DNA from: Hormiphora californensis
Lineage: Eukaryota > Animalia > Ctenophora
Length of the DNA: 64,000 bases
NCBI GenBank assembly: GCA_020137815.1
Contig: CM035359.1
Coordinates: forward strand, 496,001-560,000
Reading direction: 5' to 3'
Below are positions 23,387 to 64,000 of the stretch, one piece after another. The stretch's first letter is position 1, and every line of letters starts with the position of its first letter. Made by a program: the position numbers and the translations under genes. Below the pieces are notes generated by a model. It was given only the letters and a program-made list of their open reading frames with translations. It did no database searches and was not told the origin of the DNA.

Positions 23387-26300
23387 TTAGGTGGGTGGAG
23401 GATTGTCGATGAACCACAATACGTAAACAGGTTTAAAAAGTGCAGCGTCGTTGAGAATAAGTTGCTGACAAAAACCTGAACCATCAGGCTGTACTTTTTT
23501 GTACTTCCCTTCAATCAGGGCCAGTTTGAAGATGATCATGCATTCCTTTCCGTAATTTGCACTAAACTCAGGGTACTCAGAAAAGTAGCAGCCATCACCA
23601 AAACGTCGACCATGAACTGCTTCCCGATTTGGATCCAGATTAGTCTTTATGATACTTGAAATGTTTTCTTTAGCAGTGGCGTGGAAAGCATACACTTCGT
23701 ACGAGTTTTGGGTCCTGTTTGAGATCTTTATATACTTTTTTTCACATGATGTGTTTCTTACAACTCCAACAAATTTGGCTAGCGGTTTCCCTCCCATAGC
23801 TTGATGATATGCCGATCTTTTTGAGCAGGCTCCGTCATAAATTCCAATGACTTTCTGAAGAAGCTCCACTATCGGGTCACTAACATTCCTCATATCGAAG
23901 TCAGATAACTTGTATCTAGTTTCATCTTCAGAAAAGTTGGACATCAAATCAGCCTCAGGAATGTTCACAACTTTGGGCTTCAAAGTCAGTTGGACAAGGT
24001 ATTGGAAATGAAACTGGGAGCGATCATAAACTCGATACTTTGCTGGTTGATCCATCTTGGAGACTAGTATCGAATCCTTTTTATTCTTTTTGAGGAAATC
24101 CTGTTTTGGACCTTTCACCTCATGTGTCGCTACAGAATTGCCAACAAGTAGATTTCCAATGAAAAGAGAAACAACTCCACCCTTAGATTGTGGAAGATCA
24201 CTATCGTGAGCACCTTTTGAAAAATAAAACGACATAATATCAGAAACTAGAAGCTTTGATAAGCCAGCTATATCTCTAACATCAGCAGGAAGAATTGGAC
24301 TACGAAGAATTTTAAAGAGCTCCTGCCGCAGAGAACCATGAGTTTTAAACGCCGCCGCGTTCCAAAATTCCTCAGAATTCTTCGGACATTTTACTTCGTA
24401 ATACTCAGAGATAGTGTCAATGACATATTTTCTGCTGTGCCTGAAGAACTGTTGACATTTGTACTTAAGATCATCTCGAAGTTGAGGACTATCAATGAAT
24501 TCCAATGATGCACTATCCCCAACATTTCTAGCTTCTTCTTTAGCTCTGTCATAGGCTTGTTTAGCCAATCTCTTTTCCGCTTGGACTGACTTCTCGTACT
24601 CAATCTTGCAAATTCCACAATCCTTGGATAGACAGTTCTCGATACAGTCCAGCTTACAAGGATGCCCACAGTCCACTCTCTTCCGATCACAAGGGTGTTT
24701 GCACAGCTCTTTTTCGCTGCATTTTCTTTTCTGAAGATGCCCACAGCTCTGACTGGTGTACGACAATAGAAATTGACAGTCTTTCACTTGAGGTTTTGAC
24801 TTACCACAAACTTTTTTGAAGTGAGCAACATGTCCACAGCCATCAATCGTGAACTCAACCTGAACTGGACATTGGTGGGCTTGGTGTGAGTGCTCATCTC
24901 CACAAACTTTTTCACACTTGTGATTTTTTGGACAGCTATAAAACTCTTTGCATACTTCAAAACACTTAACTCCCCTTGGATTGGTTTTCCACGGATGACA
25001 TTGAACCTCTTTCTGGTGACCACATTTTGGGAGTCGTTTTTGCAGCTTCACAGCACATTCCAAAGTAGCCGTATCCTTATAACATTGGCGAGAGGTTTGA
25101 TGGGAACAGTCCGGAAAAATGAAACCAACCAATGTCATACATTTTGTGTGGTCGTGTCGAGGTGTGCACAGTTTAGTGCACCTATGCTGTGGAATTTTAC
25201 AGTCGTACAACTGTCTGCAAGGCTCAGTACACCACGATTTCGAACCTTTGATGTAGTGTGATATTTTTGAAGGATCAAGACACTGTCCCCGAAGCTCCTT
25301 TTCCAGGTCTTTCACGTGACCAGCACGAACAGCAGTATGGGGGTGTAGATGACACCGTAGGATAAGGTTCTCTTCAATCAAGCCTTGAGCTAAGAAAGGT
25401 TTAATAATAGGCATCCAAGTTTCATGTTCTATAAAAGTTTGTGCATCCCCGACAAAATACATTCCCCTTTTAGCTCGAGACTGAGCAACACACCTTCTTT
25501 CCATTTCTTTCATGAACCCAATGTTACCTACCGGGTTTGAGCGAGTGAGGGAGATGATAACATAGTTATTTTCGTCACCTTGATACTCATCAATTGACCT
25601 AATATCGACACTTGACTCTCCAGGCTTCAGCGATCGGAATAATGTCCTTACTGCGTGAACTTGGCCGAGATACCCACAGATAATTGTGATTTCTTCGCTG
25701 GGTACATCACTTGCGATCAGGTAGAGAGCGAGAGAAACAGCCATTCCTGCTTCTGGATAGTTTTTTACAGTCCTTTGTTTGTCTTCTCGGTAACTATGAT
25801 TCCACCAGAACATGGAGTGTTTTAGGCAGTTGAGAGGAGGATTCTTTTGATCCAGATTCGGGAAATCTTGGTAGTTTGGATAGATATCAAGAAGAAGTTT
25901 GGAAAACTCAGGTCTCATTCTTCCCTGCTTCAAAAGAGTTTTGTAGGGCAAACCAGACTCAATAAGTCTTTCCATCATAGATATATCAAGATTATAATTT
26001 GTCTTTAGATGATAGTTATCAATCTTAGGTTTTAGTTGCTTGTGATCACCAATCATTATCAGTCGTTCCACACTTTTTGTCAAAATTCCAACCAAACAGG
26101 GCTCCATAATCTCAGCACATTCTTCGATGATGACAATTTTCGGATTCAGTTTCTGCAGTAGACCAAGCTGGATCGAAGCCCCAACGATTGTAGCACCAAC
26201 GATTTTTTGACGATTCAAAACTTGAAGCTTGTTTCTTTCTTCGATATCTTTTTCTTGAGAGCGAAATGTATTCAAGTTATCGAGGGCGTCCTTCATCTTT

Positions 26301-29300
26301 TCAATAATCCCATCAAGGGCTGTAGTGAGTAATGCATAGATGAAGCAGAACCGATCAACTTCGTCCAGCTTATGTAGATATTTTTCACTTAAAAGTTCAC
26401 TCTTCAGGCTAAAATCAGAGCAAAAATCTGAGAGGTTGAATTCATGTTCGGAGGATGAACTCATCTGCATCGATGAAATCAAGTCCTCAATCCTAAGTGC
26501 TCCAGATCCAAGGTTATCATCAAAAGCAGACTCCCTCTGTGCAGCAAGCTTATTCAAATAGTCCTCTTCGATGTCATCATCTTTCTCCTTTTCATTTTGA
26601 ACGTCGTCTTCGCCGTCTTCATCTTCCCATACCTCTTCCCTTTCTTTGACCGTTCTTTGAAACAAATCTGTTAGTTCAAACAACTTTTCTTTTTTGGGTA
26701 GCCAGTCATGGAACGCTTTTTGGAACACTTTAACAAAATTCTGGGTGCCTGGTGTAGGTTGCCGGATCATTGCAGAGAACTGGATTTTAAAATCTTCCTT
26801 TGCCCGCATTCTCGCATACTGCGTCCGTGACATTTTGTTCTTAACATTATCATAAAAGAACCTGTCCAGTTGTTCTGGTGAAACCAGTTCACAGAAACTT
26901 ACTATATTGAACTTGGATTTTACTCTAAACTCGTTAAGAAGTGCCTCAAAGTTTTCAAACTCCTTGTCAATAGCTTCCATTATCTCACGATTTGAAATCC
27001 GTTTAATTGCCGTGTTTGCCATCTTGTATTTCATCAGACAACCCTCTAGCTCCTCCTCTTTTGACTGACCACCAATCCTGAGAAGCTCATCTTTCGGACA
27101 AAACTCGAGGCAGTGTTTCAGAAATTCGTCCAAAGCATGGTTTTTGTAGGTAAGGACAAGAATGGGAGGTTCATCTGGAACCTTTGGGACGCCTTTTTGC
27201 TGAATACGAGGTGTTTTTGACTTGTTGACAAGGTATAAAAGATGTGCCAGTTTCGCTCCAACGAATGTTTTCCCAGTTCCTGGAGGTCCTTGAATTATTG
27301 CAAGAGGATATTTCAGAACATGGTCAAAAGCAGCCTTTTGGGATTCTTCAAGATCGCCATAGCCTACCGTTTGCATTAGCGATGAATCAATATTTAATGG
27401 GCTATCAGAAGATGCCACCCCCAGAATAACATCACACAGAGTAAAGCTTTCCAACTTGCTGTTTCGAAGACTTTCAAGAATATACCGAAAAGACTGAAAG
27501 TAAGTCGGACTCTCAGCCATGATCAATCTGCCTGAGTGTTTCAAAAGTGTCAAAGCGGCATCCATAACATTGCTATTCGAAGAGAAAGAAACTAACTCCA
27601 CTCCAATGATTGGTCCTTTTTCCAACTTTTTAGGATCTCTGTCAATGACGGTGAGCCATATCGCATCACTGAAGTCCCCCTTCGCAGATGCACACAGCAG
27701 ATTCCCAAACATTAGTTTCCGGGACTTCTTCCAATCAGGCACTTTACAATCCGGTTTGAAGCTAAGGTAGAAAACAATTCTGGACCTGTCCTTGTCAACT
27801 TTAACCACTCCCACTCGAGAGTACATGCTCATGTCACGTTGATCGAGGCGACCGTTGTTGAAGTCGTTGATGCCCTTTTGAATACTCGAGAAGCACTCTG
27901 CACGAAGAAGTCGGTAATAGATATCTAGGTATTGGTCGACACTGTCGTAGGGCTTTTTAGTATGGACAGGCTTCAAGTAGGGAACTTTTTCAAGGGGGTC
28001 GCCAAACATTTCCTGAATAGAAGGAATGGTTTCCAATTCTTGCCATTTTTCAAGGTCTACCAGGCGGGCAGTTTTGAGGAGTAGACGGTGTAAAAATCTA
28101 GCCTCTTTACTTTTAGAATTCCGTACCAGGGCACCTAATGGTGGAAGACAATCCTTCAATTTGGATGGGTCATGTTCTACCTGTTGCTGAATTTGCCACA
28201 AATCATACTTACTCCTCGTCCTATCGCTTGTGATTCGGCTCGATAACTTTGAGGTGGAAAGCATTTCCAATATTTTAGATCTCTGGCTCGGAAATCCAGT
28301 CATGTGAGGTAAGGAAGTCATCAGAAAGGAGTATAGGCATCGAATATAGCTTTCAAATTCAGCAATTGGATCAGTTTTTGCTTTCAGTAGGAATTCCCAC
28401 AGCGCTGGACATGTCATAATAGTGTTCAATGCTCCAGTCCTAGTTCCGCCATCTTGGAGAGAACTGATAAGGGAATCAAAATAATCTTTTATCTCCCTCA
28501 GCGTTCGTTGCCCGATGAAGGTTTCGACCTTTACTTGATAGGCCTTTGGCTTAACTTTCCCATCCGGCATTTTTTCGTGCGGCCTAGCCCTAGCTGCTCG
28601 GGCTAGCTCAAACTTTACGATGTCCCCCCTTTTAAGTGCAGGTAGAAAATTGTATCCATCGAGTGCCGTTTCATACATAAAAACGTCCTTGTTCTTCACA
28701 AATTGCTCAGGCAAAGTGTGGAACGCTTTTATAAACTTTGGTTGAGCTTGGACAGTCCCAAAAAACCATTTATCTTCCTTGGCCCGCTTTGCTGAATTTA
28801 CTTTGAGCGTCGAGATTACCCGCTGAAAAAAATTGTGCGTTCTTTTGTGAATACGATCATATATCCCCTTACAAGTTAAAAATTTTAAGAGGAATTTTTG
28901 AATCAAAAAGAGCTATCGCGAGGTCATGGATAAACATGTATGATAAACCTTAAATCACACAGTAGAATATAGTTAGTTTATTAGCCAACCATTTTCTTAC
29001 CACTGAGTCCAGTAGTTCCTCTGAGATTCCATTATCCAACTCACTGTCAGAATCGCTTTCCAAAGCAGCTTGAGCCGCTTCGAGCTCTTCGCTTGCTTGC
29101 TGATACAATAACGTATATTGTTCAACCTAGTGTGAATAAAATTATATAGGTTTTGAAAAAATAACTCGATATATTAAAATTCCACACCTAATCAATTCTA
29201 TCACTTCTTCCTACATTTCTAAAATCGGACACCGATTTACCGGGATCCTGGGGGAAAGGGTTTCGCCCGGTAAATAGGGGTTCCGGTATATCGAGGCCCG

Positions 29301-32572: not shown

Positions 32573-32642
<70 letters not shown>

Positions 32643-33815: not shown

Positions 33816-36800
33816 TTAAGTGGATTTGGGTGGAGGATTGTCGATGAACCACAATACGTAAACAGGTTTAAACAACGCAGCGTCGTTGAGAATAAGTTGC
33901 TCACAAAAACCTGAACCATCAGGCTGTACTTTTTTATACTTCCCTTCAATCAGGGCCAGTTTGAAGATGATCATGCATTCCTTTCCATAGCGAGCACTAA
34001 ACTCAGGGTACTCAGAAAAGTAGCAGCCATCACCAAAACGTCGACCATGAACTGCTTTCCGATTTGGATCCAAATTAGTCTTTATGATACTACCAATGTT
34101 TTCTTTCGCAGTGGCATGGAAGGCGAACACTTCGTACGTTTTTTGGGACCTATCTGCGATCTTTATATTATAGCTCTTTTCACATGATTTGTTTCTTACA
34201 ACTCCAACAAATTTGGCTAGCGGTTTCCCTCCCATAGCTTGATGATATGCCGATCTTTTTGAGCAGGCTCCGTCGTAAATTCCGATGACTTTCTGGAGCA
34301 GCTCTACTATCGGGTCACTAACATTCCTCATATCGTAGTCAGTTAACTTGTATCTAGTTTCACCCTCAGAAAAGTTGGACATCAAGTCTGCCTCAGGAAT
34401 GTTCACAACTTTAGGCTTCAAAGTCAGTTGGACAAGGTATTGGAAATGAAACTGAGAGGGATCATAGACTCTATACTTTGCTGGTTGATTCATCTTGGAG
34501 ATGAGAATCGAATCCTTCTTATTTTTCTTGAGATATTTTTCTGGCCCTCCTTTTATCTCATGTTCCGCTACAGAGTTTCCCACAATCAAGTTTCCGATGA
34601 AAATTGAGAAAACTCCGTGTTCGGAATTTGGTAGGTCTCCATCAATAGCGCCTTTTAGTAAATCTATCGTAACGTTTGATTTAATAAGCCTTTTAAGGTG
34701 AGATATTTCAGTTATATCGACAGGAAGAATCGGATTTCGAAGAACTTTAAAGAGTTCCTGCTGCAGAGAACCGTGAGTAGTATTTGCTGCAGCGTTCCAA
34801 AATTCCTCGGAGTTCTTCGGACATTTCACTTTGTAGCACTGAGATATACAATCAATCTCATATGCGTCGCTGTGCCTGAAAAACTGTTGACATTTGCTCT
34901 CCAGACAGAGTTCACTGTCGTCAACAATTGGTACCAGAGTTGCACTATCTCCACCATTTTTAGCTTCTTCCTTAGCTCTATCATAGGCTTGTTTAGCCAC
35001 TCTCTTTTCCGCGTGGACTGCCATCTCGTACTCAACCTTACAAATTCCACAATCCTTGGATAGACAGTTCTCGATACAGCCCAGCTTACAAGGATGCCCA
35101 CAGTCCACTCTGTTTTTACCACACGGATGTTTGCACAGCTCTTTTTCGCTGCATTTTCTTCTCTGAGGATGTCCACAGCTCTGACTGGTGTACGACAATA
35201 GAAACTTGCATTCTTTAACTTCAGGTTTTGAACTTCCACAAACTTTTTTAAAGTGAGCAACATGTCCACAGCCATCAATCGTGAACTCAACCTGAACTGG
35301 ACATTCGTGCGCTTGGTGTGAGTGCTCATCTCCACAAACTTTTTCACACTTGTGCTTCTCTGGACAGCTATAGAACTCTTTGCATTCTTCAAAACACATA
35401 ACTCCACTTGGATTAGTTTTCCACGGATGACACTGAACTTCTTTCTGGTGACCACATTTAGGGAGTTGTTTTTGCAGCTTCACAGCACATTCCAAAGTAG
35501 CCGGATCCTTATAACATTGGTAAGAGGTTTGATGGGAACAGTCCGGAAAAATGAAACCAACTAATGTCATACATTTTGTGTGATCGTGCCGAGGTGTGCA
35601 CAGTTTAGTGCACCTATGCTGTGGAATTTTACAGTCGTACAACTGTCTGCAAGGCTCAGTACACCACGATTTTGAATTTAGGACATAATGTGATATTTTT
35701 GAAGGATCAAGACACTGTCCCCGAAGCTCCTTTTCCAGGTCTTTCACGTGGCCAGCACGGACAGAAGTATGGGGATGTAGATGGCACTGCAGGATAAGGT
35801 TCTCTTCAATCAATCCTTGAGCCAAGAAAGGTTTAATAATAGGCATCCAAGGAGCATGTTTTATAAAAGTTTGTGCATCTCCAACGAAATACATTCCCCG
35901 TTTTGCTCGAGACTGAGCAACACACCTTCTTTCCATTTCTTTCATGAACCCAATGTTACCTTCCGGGTTTGAGCGAGTGAGGGAGATGATAACATAGTTG
36001 TTTTCGTCCCCCTGATACTCATCAATTGACCTAATATCGACACCTAATTCTCCAGGCTTCAGTGAACGGAATAATGTCCTTACCGCATGGACTTGGCCGA
36101 GATACCCACAGATAATTGTGATTTCTTCGCTTGGTACATCACTTGCGATCAAGTAGAGAGCGAGGGAGACTGCCATCCCTGCTTCTGGATGGTTTTTTAC
36201 AGTCCTTTGTTTGTCTTCTCGGTAGCTATGATTCCACCAGAACATGGAGTGCTTTAGGCAGTTGAGAGGAGGATTCTTTTGATCCAGATTTGGGAAATCT
36301 TGGTAATCAGGGTAGATATCAAGAAGCAATTTTGAAAACTCAGGCCTCATTCGTCCCTGCTTCAGAAGAGTTTTGTAGGGCAAACCAGACAGGATCAGTC
36401 TTTCCATCATGGATATGTCGAGCCGGTAATTTTTCTTCAGATGATACGTATCGATCTGTGGCCTGAGCTGCTGGTGATCTCCAATCATTATCAGTCTTTC
36501 CACACTTTTTGTCAGAATTCCAACCAAACAGGGCTCCATAATCTCTGCACATTCTTCGATGATAACAATTTTCGGGTTCAGTTTCTGTATGAGACCAAGC
36601 TGGATCGAAGCTCCTACGATTGTGGCGCCAACAATCTTTTGTCGACTCAAAATCTGCAGCTTATTTCTGACATCAATGTCCTTTTCTTTAGAGCGGTAGA
36701 TATTCAGATTTTCCAAAGATTCCTTCATTTTTTCAATGACTTCATCCAAAGAAGTGGTGAGTGACGCAAAAATAAAGCAGAACCGATCAACTTCGTCTAG

Positions 36801-39800
36801 TTTATGTAGGTCTTTTTCACTTAAAAGTTCGCTTTTCATACAAAAATTAGCAGAAAAATCAGACAGCTGGAACTCTTTTTTGGATGACGAACTCTTCTTC
36901 ATAGATTTTATCAGTTCCTCAATCCTAAGTGCTCCAGATCCAATATTATCATCGAAGGCAGACTCCCTCTGTGCCGCGAGCTCGTTCAAATAGTCCTCAT
37001 CAATATCGTCATCATCATCTTGATCACCTTGAACGTCTTCATCACCGTCTTCATCTTGCCAAGTCGTTGTACTCCGTTCTTTGACAGTTCTGTGAAACAG
37101 ATCCGTGAGTTCGGACAACTTTCCTTTGTTCGGTAGCCAGCCATAGAAAGCATTTCTGAAAATGTTGACAAACCACTGGGCCGCTAATGGAGGTCGCTGA
37201 ATCATTTCAGAGAACTGGATTTTAAAAGCTTCCTTTGCCCGCATCATTCCATACTCTTTACGGGCTTTTTTGTTCTTAACAGCATCATAAAAGAACCTGT
37301 CCAGCTGTTCTGGAGAAACCAGTTCACAGAAACTTACTATATTGAACTTGGATTTTACTCTAAACTCGGTCAGCAACTTCTGGAAAGTGTGAAACTCGTT
37401 GTTGATAGCCTCCATTATCTCACGATTTGGAATCCGTTTAATTTTTGTGTTCGCCATTTTGTTTTTCATCAGGCAACCCTCTAGCTCCTCCTCTTTTGAC
37501 TGACCACCAATCCTAAGAAGCTCATCTTTGGGACAAAACTCGAGGCAGTGTTTCAGAAACTCGTCCAAAGCATGGTTTTTGTAGGTGAGGACAAGAATGG
37601 GAGGTTCATCCGGTACCTTTGGGGCACCTTTTGCCTGAATACGAGGTGTTTTTGACTTGTTGACAAGATACAAAAGATGAGCCAGTTTTGCTCCAACAAA
37701 TGTCTTTCCAGTTCCTGGAGGTCCTTGAATTATTGCAAGAGGATATTTTAAGACATGTTCAAAAGCAGCCTTTTGGGATTCTTCAAGATCGCCATATCCG
37801 ACCTTTTGCATCAGGGATGAATTGATGTTCAGTGGGATTTGTGAAGAATTAGCCTTTAGAATAACGTCACACAGGTTGAAGCTTTCCAATTCGCTCATTC
37901 GAAGGCTTTCCAGAATGTGCCGGAAGGACTGAAAGTAAGTCGGACTCTCAGCCATGATCAATCTACCTGATTGTTTCAAAAGTGTCAAAGCAGCATCCAC
38001 GAGGCTGTAATTGGCACAGAAAGACACTAACTCTACTCCAATAATTGGGCCTTTTTCCAACTTTTTAGGATCTCTGTCAATGACGGTGAGCCATATGGCA
38101 TCACTGAAGTCCCCCTTCGCAGAGGCGCAAAGGAGGTTTCCAAACATTAGTTGCCGGGACTTTTTCCAATTTCTTACAGGACGATCCGGTTTGAAACTCA
38201 GGTAGAAAACAATGTTAGACCTATCTTTATCAACTTTTACCACTCCCACTCGAGAGTACATGCTCATGTCTCGTTGATCGAGGCGACCATTGTTGAAGTC
38301 GTTGATGCCTTTTTGAATACTCGAGAAACACTCTGCACGAAGAAGTCGGTAATAGATATCTAGGTATTGGTCGACACTGTCGTAGGGCTTTTTAGTATGG
38401 ACAGGCTTCAAGTAGGGAACTTTTTCAAGGGGGTCGCCAAACATTTCCTGAATAGAAGGAATGGTTTCCAATTCCTGCCATTTTTCAAGGTCTACCAGGC
38501 GGGCAGTTTTGAGAAGAACACGATGCAGAAATTTGGCTTCTTTTGTATTAGAATTCCTCACCAACTCGCCCAGGGATGGAAGGCAATCTTTTAACTTGGA
38601 TGGATCACTTTCAATTTGCTGTTCGATTTGCCACAAATTGATTTTACCCCTCGCTCTGTCGCTTGTAATTCGGCTCGATAACTTTGAGGTGGAAAGCATT
38701 TCCATAATTTTAGATCTCTGGCCCGGAAATCCAGTCATGTGAGGTAAGGAAGTCATCAGAAAGGAGTATAGGCATCGAATGTAACTCTCAAATTCAGCGA
38801 TTGGATCAGTTTTTGCTTTCAGTAGGAATTCCCACAGCGCTGGACATGTCATGATAGTGTTCAGTGCTCCAGTCCTAGTCCCGCCATCTTGGAGAGAACT
38901 GATAATGGAATCGAAGTAATCTTTTATCTCCCTCAGCGTTCGTTGCCCGATGAAGGTTTCGACCTTTACTTGATAGGCCCTAGGCTTTACTTTTCCATCC
39001 GGCATTTTTTCGTGCGGCCTAGCACTTGCTACTCGAGCCAGCTCAAACTTTACGATGTCCCCCCTTTTAAGCGGAGGTAGAAAACTGTTCCCTTCCAGTG
39101 CTGCATCGTACATGAAAACGTCCTTCTTCTTCGCAAACTCCTCAGGCAAAACTTGGAACGGTTTTATAAACTGTGCTTGTCCTGGTTGAGCTTGGACAGT
39201 TCCATAGAACCATTTCCCCTCCTTGTCCACCTTTGCTGAATTAACTTTGAGAGTTGATACTACCCGCTGAAAAGAATAATCGTGTTCTTTAGTGAATTAA
39301 ACTCTTCTCCTCTTAAAATTTCTGGGAAGGGATGTTTCAGTAATTTTGATTATTTCTTACCACTGAGTCCAATATTTCCTCTGAGATACCATCATCTAAT
39401 TCACTATCAGAATCACACTCTCTCACTACCTGAGACATTTTGAGCTTTAATTTCTCGTACAACAACTTATAGTGATCAAACTTGAGAAATTATTGATGTC
39501 ACTGGTAGAAACTTTTATTAGCCCTCGTTTCTATTGGCCTCCTATATAATGACCTTCCAATACAGCAGAATCAGTTTTTCATCATAGGGGAGGGGGAGGG
39601 ACCTATCAACCGAAATCAGTGTAGCAATAATAGTTTTTTTTAGATTCAATTTGGTCTGTATTTGATTTTCTTACCCTTTGTTCTTCAGCAGCACGCTGCG
39701 AAATCATATTGGCTTTTTCTACGGCTAGCTGTGCCGCTTTATCCCTGTATGCCACAAATGCATCCTTGTACTTCTTCTCGCTATCTGCAATCTCAACACA

Positions 39801-40796
39801 CTGCCAAAATGATTGTGTTTACATGACCATCATAAGAATAAATTTGTAAGATACTGGAAGAATTTGAAATTTACTTTTTGATTTGCAGTATCCAATTCAT
39901 CCACCAAGTCGTTGTTCTGAAGGAATTAAAATTCTTTATCATTAGTGTTTAGGAGAATCCTCCGTAAAATAACATATCAGTGTTGTGGGTGTTCATGAAA
40001 TGAAAAGAAATACCTTTGCAAGGTATGCCTCAAATTTATCTTTATATTTTCTTTTGCTTTGAGCCAACTCTGTGATCTGAGGAAATGAAATCTCGATCAG
40101 TCTGTAGTAAGTATTTTTATGTAAACATTGTCAACAAGTAACCATTACTTATGCTATTGTAGACACGAATAAGGATTCTCAAAAAAATTATCATTTACGT
40201 GCCAAAAATATATATACCTTTTTGTTTGCAGTATCCAATTCATCAATACACCTCCTTTCACTTTCGGCTGAGTTTTCTGCCTGAATAAAAGAAAAGACGT
40301 GTCAAAAATAGTCAATCCAAGATCAAACATTTTCCATAACAGACAAACAAACAAACAAACAAACAGACAAAGAACAACAAGAACGAACATTGAACAATAA
40401 AAACGTTGTCTATTAGAATAATAAAGTCGATTGTTACCTTCGATTTATAATTCCTGACATGACCCGTGAGTTGAGCATTTCGGTTTATCAAATTTTGAAC
40501 CTGTTAATGTATCTGCCGTAATTATTTTTACGGTATAAACGTGCATATAAAAAGTCAGAAATGAATGTTGTTGAAAAAGTTTTTCTAACCTGGTCTTTGA
40601 GCAGTGCAACTTCATTTCTTTGGTCTGTGAACGCACGGGACGGCCGAAAATCCTGAAAATAGAAGGGTGACTTGTTGGGGGATTTTGTGCGTCACCAAAT
40701 ACTTAGGGATACACTGAATAACGTCGACAAACGCACATCTTTCTATCAGTGAAATCAGAAAATTCAAGGCATCATGAAAGAAACACTTACATTCAT
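33816..40796 (-). CDS. ZNFX1-like helicase - NF-X1 - tandem PARP-like protein, copy 2 (main exon intact)
   Basis: Uninterrupted main exon 39266-33816 with all helicase and ART motifs. Small upstream coiled-coil exons from ATGAAT|gtaag (40796-40791) and 40652-40590 down to ~39481-39361. Confidence 0.88.
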
Positions 40797-40984
40797 TTAG
40801 AAGCTGTTGCACCATGGACCTCAGGAGCCATTTCAGCTAGAAAAATAGAAGCATTGTTTAACAGGGATTGTGTCGGGTAATTGTAAGAATAGGAATCGAG
40901 ATGGAAATTCGGGTTTGGTCTAATTTGGGAATATAGCATGCCTGGGCCTTGATAGTCCAAAAGTAGTATGAATATAGAGAGAAT

Positions 40985-52131: not shown

Positions 52132-52302
52132 TTGGAAGCACCATGGACCTCAGGAGCCATTTCAGCTATAAAAATAGAAGCATTGTTTAACAGGGATTGT
52201 GTCGGGTAATTAAGGGCTAGGGGTGTCGAAGGGCTCATTGCAAAGACTAGGAATATATCATGCTTGGGTCTTGTATTGGTAGTCCGACAGTAGTATGAAT
52301 AC

Positions 52303-53651: not shown

Positions 53652-56600
53652 ATGAATACATACAAGGTAGTGAGCACCATGGCATAGGAATAGCAAGGGC
53701 AACATAGTGGGGTGTGAATTAGCAAGGGCAAAGAGGAAGAAATAAACTAATTGTCAAAAAATCATTCTTATTTCTTAATTTGCATACAATAGTAAAAAAC
53801 CACGATAAAAATTAAAATCTTCGTAAAAAACAAAAATCGGTTTCTTAAAAGAATTTCATACATTTCTCTCATCTACAGTTCGTCAGTCTGTTATAGTGTC
53901 TAACATTACATACATCTCAGAATACATACATGAAGAATCTTACAAGGCGCTTGATTTTATCTCAAAAACTAAGGAGAAGGAGGTTTGTCAATGAACCACA
54001 ACACATAAACAGGTTTAAACAACGCATCGTCTTTTAGAACGAGCTGCTCACAAAATCCTCCACTATCTGGTTGAACCTTTGTGTACTGTTCATCGATAAG
54101 CAATAGTTTGAAGATAATCATGCATTCCTTTCCATATTTAGCACTAAACTCAGGATACTCAGAAAAGTAACAACCATCACCAAAACGTCGACCATGAACT
54201 TCTTTCCGATTTGGATCCAAATTAGTCTGTATGATACTTGAAATGTTTTCTTTAGCAGTGGCGTGGAAGGCATAAACTTCACATAGCTTCTTTTCAGTCA
54301 ACTCTCCAGGCTCAGGTTCAGTTTCTTTCCTCCGATTTTCATACTTCTCTTCGGCCCCTTTGTTGCCCACAAAACCAACGTGTTTCACTCCAACTTTTCT
54401 TACAGTATTCGATTGATAAGCCGTTCTTTTTGAGCACGCTCCATCATAGATCGATATCGCTTTCTGGAGGAGCTCAACAGTGGGATCACTAACATTTCTC
54501 ATATCGTAGTCAGATAACTTGTATCGAGTTTCGCCCTCTGCAAAGCCAGTCGTAACAAAAGTCTTGGGTACCAAAGTTAGTTGGACTATGTTTCGGAAGT
54601 GAAACTTTGATCTATCGTACACCCTGTATTTAGGTGGCTGACCAATTTTCGAAATGAGGGCTGAATCTTTTTTGTTTTTCCTGAGGTATTCCTTTCTGTT
54701 TCCTTTAATCGCATCATCCGGTACAGAATCACCAATAAGTAAGTCCCCAATAATGACAGAAAAAGTTATGCTAGTATCATCAGGAAAATCGTTATCTATT
54801 GCTCCCTTACTGAAGTCAAACGAGGTCCCAGAAGGGTTACAGATCAGCTCAGTTAACGAATCTATATTATTGTTATTAACAGGATCGATTGGAGAGCTGA
54901 TTATCCGAAAAAGCTCTTGTTGGTGTATTTCATTGGTTTTAAAGGCTGCAGCACACCAAAATTCCTCCGAGTTCATCGGACAATGGACAACGTGAAACGC
55001 TAAAAACTGATCAACTTGATACCGTTCACTATGCTGGAAAAACTGGTTGCATTTGCTTTTAAGATCTTCTTTCTGTCGAAGGCTATCAACTGCTACCATT
55101 CTTACGACAGGTCCGACGTCTGCTGCCCTTTCTCTAGCTCTTCTGTAATATACCTTGGCTGCTCTCAACTGCAACTTAACAGCTCTTTCATGCTCATCCC
55201 GGCAAATCGGACAAATTTCACTCAAACAATTAGCAGCACAACCGAGTTTACATGGATGGCCACAGTCCTGCCTTTTCCGGTTACAAGGAAAACGACATTT
55301 TTCGTCCTCCCAGCATTCTCTAGACTGAAGATGACCACACGCTTCACTGACATACTTTAGAGTAAACTTACATTCAGTCACGGTAGGTTTTGGACTTCCG
55401 CATTTCTTTTTGAAGGGGGCCTGATGACCGCAACTATCGATCACAAAATCCACTTCAACAGGACAGAGGAATGCTTCATGAAGATGATATTTGCCACAAA
55501 CATCCCTAGCATTTATGATTTTCTTTACAATCAAAGTTCTTCATACATGGCTTTTGACACTTTATACGGGATCTATTTGTTTTCCATTCCTCACAAATGA
55601 CTTCAAGTTGGTGACCACACTCGGGAAGAGTTCTGTTCAGCATGACATTACACTTTAAAGTGTCAGGGTGTATGTAACATCGGTAGCTGGTTAGGTGGCC
55701 ACAATCTTCAAATCTTAGGTTAACTAAAACTTGGCACTTGTCATGTCCATGTCTTGGGGTACACAACTTTTTACACCGATGCTCTTCGATTTTACAAGGG
55801 AAATCTTCATTGCAAGGTATTTCACACCACTTTCTTGAGGGGTGAATATAATGAGTGATCTTAGACGTATCATTGCACGGGCCCTGAAGCTCTTTTTCAA
55901 GATTCGCTACGTGATCAGCCATATACGTGACTTGACCCGAGTGATAGCGACAAGAAAGAGGCAATGTATCTCCTATCAGTTGTTGGTATCTCATTTCACT
56001 AATTATTCCCTGCCAAGTTCCACTCATCTCGAACACTTCAGCGTTTCCAACAAAATACATTCCCCGTTTAGCTCGAGACTGAGCAACACACCTTCTTTCC
56101 ATTTCTTTCATGAACCCAATGTTACCTTCCGGGTTAGAACGGGTGAGAGAGATGATAACATAGTTGTTTTCGTCCCCCTGATACTCATCAATAGTCTTGA
56201 TAATAACCATTCCAAGACTGGAAGATCCATCCTTCGGTAAACTGCCACTAATTGTTCCAGCTTTTGGTCTCTCTTTTATCTTATTTGCAGGTGCGGTTGG
56301 TATGGTCGAAGTGGTACTACCACTGGCTCTCGGTGCGTCAGAGATTACTGGCATGAGAGAGCGAAAAAGTTTCTTAACAGCTTGGACTTGACCAAGGTAA
56401 CCGCAGATTATCGTGATTTCTTCACAGGGCACCTTACTTGCAATCAAGTAAAGGGCAAGAGAAACAGCCATGCCTGCCTCTGAAGTGTTCTTGACGGTCC
56501 TATCCTTTTCTTCTCGGTAACTATGATTCCACCAGAACATGGAGTGCTTTAGGCAGTTGAGAGGAGGATTCTTTTGATCCAGATTCGGGAAATCTTGGTA

Positions 56601-57969
56601 GTTTGGATAGATATCAAGAAGAAGTTTTGAAAACTCAGGCCTCATTCGTCCCTGCTTCAGAAGAGTTTTGTAGGGCAAACCAGACAGAATCAGTCTTTCC
56701 ATCATTGAAATGTCAAAGTGGTAGTTCTTTTTCAAGTGGTATGTATCAATTTGGGGCCTTAGTTGTCTATGATCTCCTATCATAATCAACCGTTCGACAC
56801 TCTTAGTCAGAATTCCCACTAGACAAGACTCGAGAATTTCAGCACACTCTTCGATGATTACAATTTTAGGGTTCAGTTTCTGCAGAAGACCAAGCTGGAT
56901 CGAAGCCCCAACGATTGTAGCACCAACGATTCTCTGTGTCTTTAGCAACTCCAGCTTATTTCTTTCGGAAGTTTCCTTGTCTTTAGACTGGTATACGTCC
57001 AAAGTTTCAAGTGTAACTTTCATTTGATCCACGACGCTGTCTACCGAAGTGGTGAGAAGAGCATGGATAAAACTAAACTTCTCGATTCCATCAAGTTCGT
57101 GAAGATCTTTTACATTCAGTATTTCGCGTCTAAGGTAAAAGTCCCCCGGAAAATCTGATAGACGGAATTCATTCTCTCCAGATGGACTCTTTTTCATTTC
57201 TGAAATTAGATCTTCCAATTTTTCTTTTCTCTTGCGAGTTTCCTCATCATCATCATCATACCCAGACCGTCTATTTGCAGTGAGTTGGTTCAAGTAGTCT
57301 TCATCGACTTCGTCATTCTCTTCTTTGGCAGCTTCCTCCTCCTCTTCCTCCCTTATTCTTGCCTTCACTGTACCATGAAACATACTTACGAGCTCAGATA
57401 GTTTGCTTTTGCGTGGTAGCCATCGATTGAAAGCCCGTCGGAAGATATCTCCAAACCAGTTGGCCGGATCGGGACCACTTACTGCATTGGCTAACATGTG
57501 ACGAAAATTACCACCACCAGATCTCAGGCCGTTGTAAAACACCCGGGCTTCGTCTGATTTGATCGAACGGTTGAAAAAACGATTTAACTGCTCCAAAGTA
57601 ACGAGCTTACAAAATGTTGATACATTAAACTGGCTACAGACATCAAAATTGACGAGTTGATCTTGAAATGTATCAAAATAATTAGATAATTGTTTTCTTG
57701 CCCGGTTTTTAAAACGGGGATACTTTATCCTCATCATTTTGTTTCTTATCAGACAGTCTTTAAGCTCCTCCTCTTTTGACTGTCCACCAATCCTAAGAAG
57801 CTCATCTTTGGGACAAAACTCGAGACAGTGTTTCAGGAATTCGTCCAAAGCATGGTTTTTGTAGGTGAGGACAAGAATGGGAGGCTCGTACTGCAGCTGT
57901 TCAGGTTCATCGCTACAAGTGGATGCTGCATCACTTTCAGACTCGATATCCATCGGGGCGACGGGATTC

Positions 57970-58290
57970 AGAGGAGGGGTAGATGATATTCCAAGAGAGG
58001 GAGGATCTGTTCCATGAGGGGTAGATGATATTCCAGGAGAGGAAGGCTCTGTTCCATGAGGGGGAGGCTCTGTTTCAGGAGAGGGAGGCTCTGTTTCAGG
58101 AGGGGGAGGCTCTGTTTCAGAAGAGGAAGGCTCTGTTTCAGGAGGGGGAGGCTCTGTTTCAGGAGGGGGAGGCTCTGTTTCAGGAGGGGGAGTACCTGTT
58201 CCATGAGGGGGAGGATCTGTTCCATGAGGGGGAGGCTCTGTTCCATGAGGGGGAGGATCTGTTCCATGAGGGGTAGGATCTGTTTCAGGA
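57970..58290. repeat. 21-bp coding-type tandem repeat inside the helicase of copy 4
   Basis: Unit ggctctgtttcaggaggggga. In the frame of the downstream ORF it encodes (PPETEPP/PHGTDPP)n. Confidence 0.85.
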
Positions 58291-61200
58291 GGTTGGGGAA
58301 GAGGAAGAAGCAGAGACCGCCAAGGAGGTCGATGCTGATGTGGACTGGGCAGAAAACCGTGAGAAAAGGTTTCCCGTGGTAGCTACCACAGGAAAGTTGC
58401 CTGCCCATTTACTAGTACCCGGTACATCATCCCGTTTATCATCAACACTGTCAGGACTTGCTTCAACATCCATTGATTGTTCATTTTGCTCTGATGCGGT
58501 TCCAGTTGGAGCCTCAGGAAGAGTAGTTCTTTCCTCTGTGGTAGATTCTGACCGTACAGATGTTCTTCTTCTTCGTCTTCTTCTAAGCAGCTGGTGCCAC
58601 ACAGGTGTTGTGTCCTCACTACTTTCGCTGGTAACCATTGACACTTGTTCCATATCTTTATTTTCAGGCTTAAAGTTCAGCAAATAGAAAAAATGGATTA
58701 GTTTTGCTCCAACAAAGGTTTTTCCAGTTCCTGGAGGTCCTTGAATAATTGCAAGAGGATATTTTAGGACATGGTCAAAAGCAGCCTTTTGGGATTCTTC
58801 AAGATCGCCATAACCAACTTTATGAACTACTCTATTTATTATCGATTCATCAACTTCAACCGATAACTCGGAAGATTTGGCAGTTAAAATTTCATCTCTC
58901 AGAGAAATATTCTCCAACTCACTACTGCGAAGACTGTCCAATATGTGACGAAATGACTGGAAGTAAGTGGGACTTTCTGCCATAATAATTCTCCCAGAAC
59001 CTTTAAGCAGAAGAAGAGCTGCAGTGTCTATCGATCTGTCTGATGAGAATGAGACTAACTCGACACCAATGAAAGGACCTTTCTCCAGCATCATTGGATC
59101 TCTATCTATGACAATCAGCCAAATCGCATCACTAAAGTCTCCCTTAGCCGATGCACACAGCAAATTTCCAAACATAAGTCGTCTCGAAGCTTTCCAGTTC
59201 TTTACCGGGCGATCTGGTCGAAACTTTAGATAAAACACAACCTTAGACCGATACAGAGATACCTTAGCAACCGCAACACTAAAATACAAACTCATATCCC
59301 GGGTATCAAGCTGCCCTTTTTTGAAGTCGGTGATTCCCTTCTGTATACTGGAGAAACACTCAGCCCGGAGGAGACGATAGTACACATTTAGGTACTGACT
59401 CGCACTCTCATATGGGGTGTCGATCTGTACAGGCTTCAAGTAGGGACCTTTTTCCAGAGGGTCTCCCATTAGCTCCAACGTGGACGGAATAGTTTCCAGC
59501 TCCTGCCATTTTTCAAGGTCTACCAAACGAGCTGTTTTTAGGAGTAGACGGTGTAGGAATCTGGTTTCTTTTGTATTAGAATTCCTAACCAACTCGCCCA
59601 AGGATGGAAGACAATCTTTTAACTTGGATGGATCACTTTCTACCTTGCTGCTCGATCTGCCAGTGAAGTACTTTACAACGATCATCATCATTCATGATGT
59701 GCTCCGTTAGCTTTAACGAACTCAGTGTGGCCATTATTTTGGCTTTTTGTACCGGATAGGCTTTCATGAGAGGAATCACAACCTTGAGAAACGTGTACAA
59801 ACATCGTATGTATAGTTCCATGCTACACGCTCTGAAAGTTCTAACTTTCAGTAGATAATCCCAGAGGGGTGGACACGACATTATCGTGTTTAACACCGCA
59901 ACTCTCGTTTCCGTTGCCGTTAGGACTTTAGATAACGAGTCGAAGTAGGCTTTGATATCTTTTAGAGGTCGGTGGGCAATGAATGATTCAACTTCAACTC
60001 GAAACGCTCTTGGTTTAACCTTTTCTTCAACCTTTTGTTTACCTCGGGCAAGTTCGAACCGTAAAATGTCTCCTTCTTTCAAAGTAGGAAGATAGCATTG
60101 GCCATCAAAAGCAACAGTGTCATCAAAAACAACATCTTTGTTTTCGAGAAATCTATCTGGAAGTTTTTGAAATGGACGGATGTACTGCGTTTGGCGCTGA
60201 AGGGCACCCAAATGCCATTTCCCTACTTTTCCTCTCAAAATCTGCTTCCGGCTATGTTGAGTGATTAGCATCTGAAACAAACAGATATTATCTGAAAATC
60301 GTAAAATTTATTTAACCATAGCTGTAAATTGTAATCAGTAATACTGTTTCTCTTTTTTGACCATTTGGCATTTCATCAAAATCAATGAATACTATTTTGC
60401 TTACCACGGAGCAAATATCAGTCTCTGAGATTCCAGCATCTAAATCAAAACTTTCCTCATCAAATGACTGACTTTGTTGCATGAGAACCTCCTCATACAA
60501 TGTCTTATAGTGATTCACCTGAGTGCCAGTTAGGAGATAAGAGAGAGTCCCAAATTTCCAATAGATTGTCCTATGGATAGAGAAATAGCCACGTGGAGGC
60601 GGAAAAAAGTCCTACATTTTTGGATGACGATTAAAGAGAGTTCTGACCTGGTTCTCTGCAGACTTTAGATTCTTTTCAATATCGGGTATCTCTTCTACCT
60701 ATGAAACATGAAAACTGTTTAATCCACCCGGCACCCAACCTTATAAATTTTAATATAGAATTTTCATTTTACACACGTGTTGTTAAAGTAATCATTACAA
60801 CTAACCTTTCTCCTTTTTACGTTTACGTTTACGTTTTCATTTTCAAGCTCAGATACTCGTTTTCTCGATTTGCCCAGCTCATTATCCAATGCTGCACTCT
60901 CAGCGACACTTTTGGCCAATTCTTCACTCTAAATTATTTGTTTAAACTGGGATTAAGAGTTTTACGATTCAAACAATGCAATTTATCACGCATGGTTACC
61001 TTGATTTTATATTTTCTAATCTGATCCTTGAGCAGTGCATTTCGTTCTACCAAATTCTTAACCTGTTGTAGGAAACCAATCAAGTAACTTCTAACATTTC
61101 AATACCGTACAGGTGTTCACAAGTAGGTACATTACTAGCATTTCATGTTCACACATTATCTATTTTTTCCCTGCCCGGGTGAATGCCCGAAGGGCATTCA

Positions 61201-61831: not shown

Positions 61832-62571
61832 CAATAATAAGTGACTGGATGAGCTAAGATGAGGGTAATATAAAGTTGAAGCACTTGGTAACCAACTAGG
61901 GTCTCCTAAGTAACTGTCTTGGTTATCATAGCAATTGCCTTGGTTACCATAGCAACTGCTTTGAATACCATAGCAACCACCCTGGATACCATAGCAAATA
62001 ACATCGTATCAGCCAAAAATTGCTCTTTGAGTGCAAAATTCATCGGGAAATCCAGTTTTGAAGCTTAGTCATCAATTTTACACCCATCTGGGGCAGGGAA
62101 ACACCGCATTATGAATACATAATGCAATAATTCTTCTAATACAAATTATCTAGTTTAATACCTGGATATTAAGTACTGTAACTTCATCGATTTTGTCTTT
62201 GAAAGCACGTGAGGGCCGAGAATCCTGGTAAATAGAAGGGTGTTGGAAGTAGTTACAGAAAGATTATATATTTTCTGACAGTGGTTACTAAGCAATGTTT
62301 TCAATTCAAATACAACCACTGACAAAGGTTATTAGAAAGTGCGGATTTTTAACTTACATTCATTTTGCAGTTCCATATCCATTTTTCCAGTTAAGGCAGG
62401 TTGTATTAAAATATGTACATTGATGCTTAAAATTTAAAGGTTTATTGGATATAGAAGAAAACTTCGGTCAAATGAAAACAACGGACGCATTTAGTTAAAT
62501 CAATCAATATTTTAAAACATGAAAAAATAATATACAGAACAAGAGTAAATAATTTAAGTAAAAATTCATGC

Positions 62572-64000
62572 TTAAAAAATTGTGGGCGCTGTGGGTGGAT
62601 TATCAATGAACCACAGCACAAATACAGGTTTAAAAAGATTCACATCTTCCAGAACGAGCTGTTCACAAAACCCGGCCTCATCAGGTTTCACTCGTTTGTA
62701 CTTCCCTCAATCAACAACAGCTTAAAAATTAACATGCATTCCTGGCCCATACTTCAAACTGAATTCAGGGTATTCTGAGAAGTAACAACCGTCCCCATAC
62801 GCCCTGCCATGGACAATCTTCTTCGCTGGATCCAGATTTTCCCGAATGATATTAGGAATGTTGTTGGGAGCGGTGGCGTGATAAGCGAAAATCTCATACG
62901 GTTCATCGCGTTGCTTCCTGTCTGTGCCTGATACATTGCCTCCAGCCTCCTGTTGTGAATAATGCCTACAGTGCTTTATTTCACATGAGTTTCTTTGAGT
63001 GGCAGGTCTCTTGGAGCAATCACCAGTATAGGACGCGATGGCCTTTCCGATTAGTTCTACTTTTGGATCCCTGACATTTCTCAAATCCAAACCAGCTAAA
63101 CGGAATCGTGACTCTCCCTCCTGGAAATCCTCCAGAAGAGCAGTATCCATGTGAGGTGTGGACTTGCGAGGGCTCAAAACCACCTTTACCAGGTACTTGA
63201 TGTGGATTAGAGACCGATCGAAAACTCGATACCGTGCTGGTTCTCCCAATTTTGATGTCAAAATGGAATCCTTTTCGTTGGACTTCATGAAGTTCAGGAC
63301 CTTTCTGGTAGCCCCGTCAGCCCCACCAGGGACGGTTATTTCGCTGGCAGGGATCATGTCTCCGATTAGGAAAGTCACCAATTAACTAAGGTTTGCTCTC
63401 CATCACCTGGGACATCACTGTCAAGAGCGTTCTTGGAGAAATCGATGAAGATACCACTTCCAAAGTCTGCAAGAGGGTTCATCAAGCTAGTCAGATCATC
63501 AAAATCTTGTGGACCAAGAGGAAACTTGAAGGATTTTGAACAACTCCTCTTGCAGGAAACCGTTTGATTTGTTTGCTGCAGCGTCCCAAAACTCCTCCGA
63601 ATTCTTGGGACACTTCACGCTGTAAATCTCCTTGATGGAAGAAACTACAAATTTGCAACCATGATGAAAATATCCATGGACCTTATTCTCCAAATCACGA
63701 CGATACGGATCAGGAACTGGTACAAACGAAACAGGAATTCCCCTCGCTCTCCTGCCTGAATCCTAGCCTTCTCATACTCCCGTTGGGCCACCGCTTTCTG
63801 CTTCTGGACAACCTTCTTGTACTCCAAAATACACAACTCACACTCCTTCAATAAACAAGACTCATAACAAACACCCCTGCAAGGGTGTCCACAGTCAGGG
63901 TCGTTTTGCAGTACACGGGTGAGTACATTTCTCTGGATGAGAGCAGACTCTGCTCTGGGGATGACCGCAGTGTGTGCTCACATACTTCATCTGGAATTTA
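62572..64000 (-). pseudogene. 3' end of ZNFX1-like helicase-PARP-like copy 5 (most divergent, several frameshifts; runs off the window)
   Basis: CPKNSEEFWDAAA, YRVFDRSLIHIKYLV, AYHATAPNNI..HGRAYGDGCYFSEYPEFSLKYG and FCEQLVLEDVNLFKPVFVLWFIDNPP in shifting frames. Confidence 0.75.

What the first reader, a model, noticed from the sequence alone, without database searches (positions are those of the whole stretch)
23387..64000. Tandem array of ZNFX1-like RNA helicases fused to PARP-like ADP-ribosyltransferase domains: candidate undescribed sensor-effector immune system
Seen: at least 5 head-to-tail paralogs over >40 kb sharing coiled coil + cold-shock/OB-like motif + ZNFX1-type SF1 helicase + NF-X1-type fingers + C-terminal ART folds (copy 5 is visible only from the fingers onward). 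Known: ZNFX1 is an RNA-sensing antiviral and small-RNA-inheritance helicase whose vertebrate form has no PARP domain; PARP12/13/14 are separate antiviral proteins. Inference: RNA recognition is wired directly to ADP-ribosylation or NAD+ consumption in one polypeptide, and the gene is expanding by birth and death as immune genes do. I do not recall this fusion being described, but cannot check.
Basis: partly seen in the sequence, partly recalled or inferred. Interest (0 to 1): 0.92.

Follow-up and report, generated by a model that had tools for sequence, protein, structure and literature searches.

The report
ZNFX1 helicases with twin PARP tails
Five neighbouring genes encode a relative of the antiviral RNA helicase ZNFX1 whose ubiquitin-ligase end is replaced by two PARP-type domains, a design shared by comb jellies, a sponge, soft corals and arthropods that likely turns RNA sensing into ADP-ribose tagging.

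Summary
The array and the fusion are real. Five head-to-tail minus-strand paralogs lie at 23.4-64 kb. Copies 1 and 2 carry helicase, zinc fingers and two ART domains in one unbroken frame. The helicase is ZNFX1-type (317 bits to human ZNFX1, 108 to UPF1). The tail is predicted to fold as two PARP domains (pLDDT 91; Z 17 and 13) and begins where ZNFX1's Z-RING/RZ ubiquitin ligase normally begins. The fusion is not local: 109 of the 120 closest helicase relatives carry a PARP domain, including named ctenophore, sponge, octocoral, copepod and horseshoe-crab proteins. They form one group apart from RZ-type ZNFX1. Most relatives keep an H-Y-E triad in ART1 (96 of 135). Here ART1 has lost it and ART2 is H-Y-Q, which suggests mono-ADP-ribosylation. 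Ten literature searches showed no description, but two key papers were not held. RNA-triggered activity and an immune role are inferred, not shown. Birth-and-death evolution is unproven: the breaks in copies 3-5 may be assembly errors. Verdict: an old, widespread, apparently undescribed ZNFX1 subfamily with a swapped effector.

The parts
23387..28912 (-). Copy 1, large exon (1841-aa stop-to-stop frame, intact): CSD-like, helical region, ZNFX1-type SF1 helicase, Cys/His fingers, ART1, ART2
33816..39296 (-). Copy 2, large exon (1826-aa stop-to-stop frame, intact); reference copy for residue numbers
38937..39266 (-). Copy 2 cold-shock-like domain (residues about 11-120); indirect support only
   Evidence: no Pfam hit; profile overlaps Pfam CSD in relatives
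35874..38276 (-). Copy 2 helicase (residues 341-1141): Walker A K531, Walker B E914/E915, and F1117/R1123 at the places of human F1210/R1216, which are needed for RNA binding
   Evidence: (alignment read by eye)
35037..35792 (-). Copy 2 Cys/His finger repeats (32 Cys and 21 His in residues 1161-1450); the last finger aligns with the finger that precedes the Z-RING in an RZ-type ZNFX1
34410..34940 (-). Copy 2 ART1: predicted PARP fold, catalytic H-Y-E absent (pseudo-ART), dN/dS about 0.25
33846..34376 (-). Copy 2 ART2: predicted PARP fold, triad H1727-Y1759-Q1800, second Tyr Y1770 kept, Ala in place of the usual Gly after His
23972..24502 (-). Copy 1 ART1 (pseudo-ART)
23411..23938 (-). Copy 1 ART2 (H-Y-Q)
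43040..48705 (-). Copy 3: clean frames of 929 and 582 aa around a garbled stretch
44800..45950 (-). Garbled part of copy 3: colinear with copy 2 throughout, 162 inserted and 80 deleted bases, mostly single; resembles unpolished long-read sequence
53969..60307 (-). Copy 4: four frames joined by three frameshifts; carries a low-complexity insert with a 21-base repeat (57989-58292) inside RecA1
62570..64000 (-). Copy 5, 3' part only (last fingers, ART1, ART2), many frameshifts; runs off the window
39353..40882 (-). Probable small 5' exons of copy 2, matched segment by segment at 49688-52211 upstream of copy 3 (79-92% identity); copy 1 shares segments 28990-29463 with copy 3 (48715-49054). Spliced product not modelled
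   Evidence: read by eye

Best explanation
These genes encode ZNFX1-type RNA helicases ending in two PARP-type domains in place of the ubiquitin ligase, and they likely act as RNA-triggered mono-ADP-ribosyltransferases in antiviral defence. Shown: the architecture, intact helicase motifs, the swap point after the last zinc finger, loss of the triad in ART1, H-Y-Q in ART2, purifying selection. Predicted: both PARP folds. Inferred from human ZNFX1: the helicase binds long single-stranded RNA in an ATP-dependent way, loading of several molecules on one RNA switches on the tail, and the modification clusters or marks the RNA-protein complex. Inferred from PARP enzymology: ART2 adds single ADP-ribose units (no catalytic Glu) to itself, to neighbouring proteins or to the RNA, while the dead ART1 is kept as a scaffold or regulator. 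In most relatives ART1 keeps H-Y-E and would be able to build chains. The array probably grew by unequal crossing-over with gene conversion.
For: Single-frame fusion in copies 1 and 2. Best solved relative is human ZNFX1, 317 bits against 108 for UPF1. Walker A/B and both RNA-binding residues named in bioRxiv 10.1101/2025.09.05.674436 are conserved. Tail model pLDDT 90.7; ART2 matches PARP15 at Z 17.2 (rmsd 2.4, 155 aligned), ART1 the RCD1 PARP domain at Z 13.3 (rmsd 3.5, 161 aligned). The last finger aligns with the finger before the Z-RING in RZ-bearing L011. 97 of 120 closest relatives have two ART domains, 16 one, 7 none. ART2 keeps His and Tyr in 121 of 122 rows. dN/dS 0.08-0.28 in 9 of 10 regions of copy 1 against copy 2. 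The same preprint shows that RNA binding stimulates the C-terminal enzyme of human ZNFX1 and that this restricts a virus. Paralogs share a contig in Mnemiopsis (consecutive locus tags) and, by equal contig lengths, in Xenia and Dendronephthya.
Against: No activity, substrate, induction or phenotype was measured. ART1 is degenerate in the 4 window copies scored, and ART2 has Gln for Glu and Ala for the Gly after His, so both domains could be inactive. No region shows dN/dS above 1, so there is no sign of an arms race at whole-domain level. The helicase is a separate lineage from RZ-type ZNFX1, so human ZNFX1 biochemistry may not carry over. Copies 3-5 are broken in this assembly.
Confidence: 0.55

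Rival explanations
1. The proteins work in small-RNA silencing or germline transposon control, as C. elegans ZNFX-1 and fission-yeast Hrr1 do (recalled), with ADP-ribose marking target RNA or building granules.
For: Same helicase family. Cold-shock-like domains suit single-stranded RNA binding. This role is compatible with purifying selection.
Against: Repeated paralog clusters in several animals and mosaic copies fit immune gene families better than a single-copy silencing factor. No Argonaute or RdRP gene was seen among the window's long frames.
Confidence: 0.2
2. In this lineage both ART domains are non-catalytic binding platforms, as in PARP13/ZAP (recalled), and the protein acts by binding RNA and recruiting partners.
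For: ART1 lacks H-Y-E in all 18 ctenophore-group rows scored; ART2 lacks the Glu and has Ala after His in the window copies. PARP13 and TASOR pseudo-PARP domains are among the top fold matches (Z 16.9, 15.5).
Against: ART2 keeps His and Tyr in 121 of 122 rows, and the second Tyr and pocket Gly/Ser are at least 90% conserved. Glu sits at the third position in 33 of 122 rows, including three ctenophore-group proteins. Fold rank does not separate active from dead domains.
Confidence: 0.14
3. The tail is an NAD+-consuming suicide switch: RNA sensing drains NAD+ and kills the infected cell.
For: Sensor and enzyme sit in one chain; H-Y-E in ART1 of 96 of 135 rows would allow high turnover.
Against: The window copies lack the Glu in both domains. 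The closest folds are protein-modifying PARPs (Z 13-17), and NAD+-degrading toxin folds score only Z 4-5.
Confidence: 0.08
4. The array is an assembly artefact (haplotypes or repeated reads placed in tandem), and the fusion comes from errors.
For: Parts of the window look unpolished.
Against: Copies differ far more than alleles (dS 0.15-0.89 between copies 1 and 2, often saturated against copy 4). The fusion lies in single frames and recurs in 109 of 120 relatives. One 2413-base contig of run X1 carries helicase, finger and ART1 matches at the same spacing.
Confidence: 0.03

Closest known systems
Human ZNFX1 (PDB 9q9z; bioRxiv 10.1101/2025.09.05.674436)
   Same: UPF1-like SF1 helicase with the ZNFX1 domain, conserved ATP- and RNA-binding residues, Cys/His finger array, enzyme at the C-terminus.
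   Different: Z-RING and RZ ubiquitin-ligase module replaced by a helix and two ART domains; cold-shock-like N-terminus; separate branch from RZ-bearing sequences in the helicase tree (human ZNFX1 itself was not in the tree); tandem paralogs with one very large exon.
Database proteins with the same architecture: Mnemiopsis ACHWQZ_G017831, Xenia and Dendronephthya 'NFX1-type zinc finger-containing protein 1-like', Paramuricea, Sycon LOC135817127, Tigriopus TCAL_04452, Limulus LOC106460493, Tachypleus
   Same: Helicase plus tandem ART, same branch of the tree.
   Different: Only automatic names. The Xenia, Tigriopus, Limulus and Tachypleus proteins scored keep H-Y-E in ART1; the ctenophore group, Sycon and the P0010 group have lost it.
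Zinc-finger antiviral PARPs (PARP7, PARP12, PARP13/ZAP) and macro-PARPs (PARP9/14/15)
   Same: RNA- or ADP-ribose-reading modules joined to a PARP domain; antiviral; present in cnidarians (PMC11784840, PMC10221186); PARP15, 13 and 10 are the closest folds to ART2.
   Different: They have CCCH, WWE or macro domains, one PARP domain and no helicase motor.
Chain-forming H-Y-E PARPs (tankyrase, PARP1/2)
   Same: ART1 of most relatives has the H-Y-E triad.
   Different: No ankyrin/SAM, WGR or helical regulatory domain was found; the window copies lack the Glu in both domains.

Membership tests
ZNFX1 helicase family (broad) | UPF1-like SF1 core (AAA_11, AAA_12) with the ZNFX1 domain PF25396 | tested here: met
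   all three above cut-off in copies 1 and 2
ZNFX1 helicase family (broad) | Closer to ZNFX1 than to UPF1, Aquarius, SEN1, IGHMBP2 | tested here: met
   317 bits against 108 or less
ZNFX1 helicase family (broad) | Walker A/B and RNA-binding Phe/Arg | tested here: met
   K531, E914/E915, F1117, R1123 of copy 2, read by eye from the alignment with human numbers
ZNFX1 helicase family (broad) | NF-X1-type finger repeats | tested here: inconclusive
   aligns with ZNFX1 fingers; no Pfam zf-NF-X1 hit
ZNFX1 helicase family (broad) | N-terminal ARM-type helical region (feature recalled) | tested here: inconclusive
   phmmer match to human ZNFX1 starts at residue 163; this region was not folded
Canonical RZ-type ZNFX1 (RNA-activated E3 ligase) | RZ finger PF20173 | tested here: not met
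   no hit in the window; the model does hit 4 of 25 locus proteins; the protein ends with ART2
Canonical RZ-type ZNFX1 (RNA-activated E3 ligase) | Z-RING after the last finger | tested here: not met
   similarity to L011 stops at the last finger; a helix and ART1 follow
Canonical RZ-type ZNFX1 (RNA-activated E3 ligase) | Groups with RZ-bearing helicases | tested here: not met
   (AU p 2.3e-6; grouping named after earlier trees were seen)
ARTD/PARP catalytic domain | PARP fold | tested here: met
   predicted model: Z 17.2 for ART2, 13.3 for ART1; Pfam PF00644 for ART2
ARTD/PARP catalytic domain | His and Tyr of the NAD+ pocket | tested here: met
   ART2 in copies 1-4 and copy 5 (by eye); not met for ART1
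Poly-ADP-ribosylating PARPs | H-Y-E triad | tested here: not met
   window ART1 degenerate, ART2 H-Y-Q by alignment; met in ART1 of 96 of 135 rows of the wider set
ARTD/PARP catalytic domain | NAD+-dependent ADP-ribose transfer | not testable with these tools
   needs an assay
Antiviral innate-immune gene | Induced by viral RNA and restricts virus | not testable with these tools
   needs expression data and knockdown

The most novel reading that the evidence does not exclude
ZNFX1 split early, perhaps before animals, into two lineages with one RNA-sensing motor and different outputs. One writes ubiquitin. The other, undescribed, writes ADP-ribose through a two-domain PARP (chain-capable ART1 plus ART2) and traps or silences viral RNA with ADP-ribose the way human ZNFX1 does with ubiquitin: an RNA-activated PARP, the RNA counterpart of DNA-activated PARP1, which ctenophores retuned to single ADP-ribose marks and amplified in arrays.
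Probability: 0.3. Interest if true: 0.9.

Novelty: new variant of a known kind. Interest (0 to 1): 0.72.

Why it matters
If active, this is a PARP with its own ATP-driven RNA sensor. I know of no such enzyme among the human PARPs (recalled), and two published surveys of PARP evolution do not contain the word helicase in their main text. It makes a clean test possible: does a ZNFX1 motor switch on ADP-ribosylation as it switches on ubiquitination? It also points to an overlooked antiviral candidate in animals without interferon (comb jellies, sponges, corals, crustaceans, horseshoe crabs), now hidden under automatic 'ZNFX1-like' or 'PARP' labels. The family offers natural variants with ART1 alive or dead for working out what two PARP domains in tandem do.

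Tried and rejected
No whole genome is held for the window. Folding the tail without an alignment failed (pLDDT 31); with 53 rows it worked. The first C-terminal homolog search found only 1 protein among 2858 candidates, which would have made the fusion look rare; searches through P0001, the representatives and the helicase overturned that. Sequencing runs: no RNA holder listed; run X1 holds only short diverged matches and could not settle the frameshifts. Prokaryote and viral scans: the 80 kept prokaryote loci and 4 viral loci match the helicase core only; the prokaryote scan covered 21 of 64 parts and was seeded on helicase words, so it is a weak test. The viral fold library gave only generic PARP matches. 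The ESM Atlas gave generic PARP clusters with scores under 0.9. Pfam did not detect CSD, zf-NF-X1 or ART1 in the window pieces. One search included a wrong-frame row for copy 3 and is superseded. Neighbours of L010 and L031 did not tell their kind of organism. Rejected: a local, recent fusion; membership of RZ-type ZNFX1; chain formation by the window copies (no Glu); positive selection at whole-domain level. No complex prediction was run. PMID 35063603 (Blasi et al. 2022, metazoan ZNFX1 survey; title seen only in the reference list) and PMC7685563 (id recalled) were not held, and no supplementary files were read; any of these could mention the fusion. The spliced N-terminus was not modelled, so the coiled coil and the true start codons stay open.
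Full report
Observation. The window holds five paralogs on the minus strand, head to tail, from 23387 to the window's end (tblastn). Copy 1 (23387-28912) and copy 2 (33816-39296) are unbroken frames of 1841 and 1826 residues. Each has Pfam ZNFX1, AAA_11, AAA_12 and PARP hits above the curated cut-offs, so the helicase-PARP fusion needs no splicing. Copy 3 has two clean frames (929 and 582 aa) around a 1.15-kb stretch that is colinear with copy 2 but carries 162 inserted and 80 deleted bases, mostly single. Dense indels with sharp edges look like unpolished long-read sequence, not decay (inference). Copy 4 has three frameshifts and copy 5 many; these could be errors or true breaks. Short conserved segments upstream of each large exon look like small exons by eye.

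The helicase. Human ZNFX1 (PDB 9q9z) is the best solved relative at 317 bits; UPF1 follows at 108 (23 matches). Reading that alignment by eye with the residue numbers of bioRxiv 10.1101/2025.09.05.674436 (abstract, passages and sections 8, 9, 12 read), copy 2 keeps Walker A K531, Walker B E914/E915, and F1117/R1123 at the places of human F1210/R1216, whose double mutation abolishes RNA binding. The N-terminal cold-shock-like domain has only indirect support. Pfam misses it in 4 of 4 copies, but a profile from the window and 14 close relatives overlaps the Pfam CSD in 5 of 8 annotated relatives in round one, and more strongly after one iteration.

The tail. With a 53-row alignment the last 394 residues of copy 2 gave a model with pLDDT 90.7 and pTM 0.63. 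Against 48,161 solved chains, ART2 matches PARP15 (Z 17.2, rmsd 2.4, 155 aligned), PARP13 (16.9) and PARP10 (16.3); ART1 matches the RCD1 PARP domain (Z 13.3, rmsd 3.5, 161 aligned); 19 rows reach Z 10 or more, nearly all PARP domains, and the next row is at Z 6. Foldseek agrees. The last zinc finger aligns with the finger of RZ-bearing L011 that is followed by a Cys-x-His and Cys-x-x-Cys module matching the preprint's Z-RING description. In the window a long helix and ART1 follow instead. So the ART pair stands where the two-part ubiquitin ligase stands in canonical ZNFX1.

Distribution. The first tail search found 1 protein. That protein found 28, and the representatives search added closer ones among 115 hits. 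A helicase-region search gave 407 proteins at E<=1e-30 among 6764 candidates, 120 listed. By my count 109 of the 120 carry a precomputed PARP domain and none lists the RZ finger. Profiles of the two domains found two ARTs in 97 of 120, one in 16 and none in 7 (cut-off 25 bits; 14 of the 120 were in the training alignment). Named members with a PARP hit: Mnemiopsis G017831, four Xenia proteins, two Dendronephthya proteins, Paramuricea, Sycon, Tigriopus, Limulus, Tachypleus. Against this: Mnemiopsis G017830 has only the start of ART1, and the Bolinopsis and one Dendronephthya model have none; they may be truncated models, which I did not test. Most hits are unnamed, and absence from vertebrates was not tested. 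Among 25 proteins from metagenome loci (chosen as long frames from the 80 loci), 4 carry RZ, 3 carry PARP, none both.

Tree. On 603 helicase columns of 99 rows, all ART-bearing rows fall in one 73-row group (support 98). That group also holds six rows without a detected ART (P0241, P0257, P0259, P0287, P0296 and long-branched L035). With 36 rows under a mixture model the 23 rows labelled ART (one, P0227, has only a partial ART1) form one side of a branch (SH-aLRT 100; one change; 0 of 500 shuffles as low). A test forcing the window and Mnemiopsis with five non-ART sequences of the branch that holds RZ-bearing L009 and L011 is rejected (p 2.3e-6; 19 rows, simpler model, grouping named after earlier trees). 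The root is not secure and human ZNFX1 was not in the tree. Window copies 1 and 2 sit in a 13-row group with Mnemiopsis and Bolinopsis (support 99), so the source is probably a ctenophore (inference). Two GC-rich contigs (L010, L031) branch deepest in the ART group; their organism is unknown.

Catalytic residues. ART1 has H-Y-E in 96 of 135 aligned rows, among them Xenia, Tigriopus, Limulus and Tachypleus. It is degenerate in the 4 window copies scored and in the 14 other ctenophore-group rows printed. ART2 keeps His and Tyr in 121 of 122 rows; the third position is Met 41, Glu 33, Gln 30, Ile 8, other or gap 10. The rows include close paralogs, so these are not independent counts. The window's ART2 is H-Y-Q with Ala after His. 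From established PARP enzymology (recalled), loss of the Glu removes chain elongation but can leave mono-ADP-ribosylation. The third position rests on sequence alignment.

Evolution of the array. Copy 1 against copy 2: dN/dS 0.08-0.28 in nine regions and 0.57 in a 25-codon helix; dead ART1 is at 0.26 and ART2 at 0.23. ART1 is thus kept as a fold. dS ranges from 0.15 to 0.89 along the gene, and a part of copy 3's ART2 is 94% identical to copy 4 against 74-77% to copies 1 and 2, which points to gene conversion or unequal crossing-over. No region shows dN/dS above 1; several copy 4 values are saturated. Consecutive Mnemiopsis locus tags and shared contig lengths in Xenia and Dendronephthya suggest that clustering recurs. 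One contig of run X1 (RNA status a guess) carries helicase, finger and ART1 matches at the window's spacing.

Mechanism. Best reading (0.55): ATP-dependent RNA binding by the helicase switches on mono-ADP-ribosylation by ART2, with ART1 as scaffold or regulator, in antiviral defence. The sensor-to-enzyme step is borrowed from human ZNFX1, where RNA stimulates the C-terminal ligase and this restricts a virus. Nothing functional was measured here. Rivals: small-RNA silencing (0.2), a fully non-catalytic tail (0.14), NAD+ depletion (0.08), artefact (0.03).

Literature. Ten full-text searches, seen as listings with abstract starts: ZNFX1+PARP (206 papers, 30 listed), +invertebrate+domain architecture (5), +ctenophore (0), +ADP-ribosyltransferase (14), PARP+helicase domain+Nematostella+Trichoplax+evolution (0), NFX1-type zinc finger+PARP domain (0), ZNFX1+Nematostella (3), PARP+Mnemiopsis+ADP-ribosylation (4), ZNFX1+paralogs+fused+ADP-ribose (1), and four of five broad terms (57, 40 listed). 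No listed title or abstract start describes the fusion. Term look-ups in main texts: PMC2964712 and PMC4245714 have no 'helicase' or 'NFX1'; PMC9334734 treats ZNFX1 and PARPs as separate genes (passages); PMC6208414 lists both among coral-diversified families without linking them (passages); PMC12687431, PMC11784840 and PMC10221186 do not mention it in the passages returned. PMID 35063603 and PMC7685563 were not held, subscription journals are mostly missing, and no supplements were read. 'Undescribed' therefore means not found in these searches.

Verdict. Observation confirmed; interpretation partly supported. It belongs to the broad ZNFX1 family, fails the tests for RZ-type ZNFX1, and by design would work like it with another modifier. 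New variant of a known kind; interest 0.72.

Noticed in passing
window 1003-5946: LINE-type element on the minus strand (ORF2 1482-4694 with endonuclease and reverse transcriptase; a Cys-rich frame 4669-5778). It is flanked by 131-base inverted repeats at 99% identity (1003-1133, 5816-5946), with a 211-base palindrome next to the left one, which is unusual for a LINE.
   Followed up: no
window 30833-31930 (+): 365-aa frame, antisense in the 5' region of copy 1, no Pfam hit; resembles a LINE ORF1 protein by recall.
   Followed up: partly
window about 22823 and downward (-): Start of a PP2A scaffold subunit (PPP2R1A-like) gene about 560 bases past the stop of copy 1; it bounds the array (by recall; HEAT hit at 19170-19670).
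   Followed up: no
window 15264-16499 (+): Papain-family cysteine protease in one frame, just after a 59-base repeat of 15 copies at 14204-15105.
   Followed up: no
window 41665-42485 and 52369-53634: Two foldback or MITE-like insertions between copies: 333-base inverted repeats at 98.8%, and a long palindromic element with 5-base repeat arrays at both ends.
   Followed up: no
copy 3, about 43250-43550, and the Walker A region of copies 1-4: Mosaic identity: part of copy 3's ART2 is 94% identical to copy 4 but 74-77% to copies 1 and 2, the reverse of most of the gene; the Walker A region is 90-95% identical among the pairs compared. Suggests gene conversion.
   Followed up: partly
L010:1459-7212 and L031:11016-16061: GC-rich metagenome contigs with helicase plus ART1 (H-Y-E) and a divergent second ART, branching deepest in the ART group; organism kind unknown, possibly non-animal.
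   Followed up: partly
P0010 group (P0010-12, 14, 15, 17-19, 22, 26) and P0196: Further, separate losses of the ART1 triad, again with Gln or Glu in ART2. Of 39 rows with dead ART1, 34 have Gln or Glu in ART2; of 83 with live ART1, 41 have Met (rows are related, so not independent).
   Followed up: partly
P0240, P0235, L048, L054, L015: Other ZNFX1-like fusions: N-terminal ubiquitin-like domain (P0240), weak TPR (P0235), C-terminal AAA modules (L048, L054), N-terminal Snf7 (L015).
   Followed up: no
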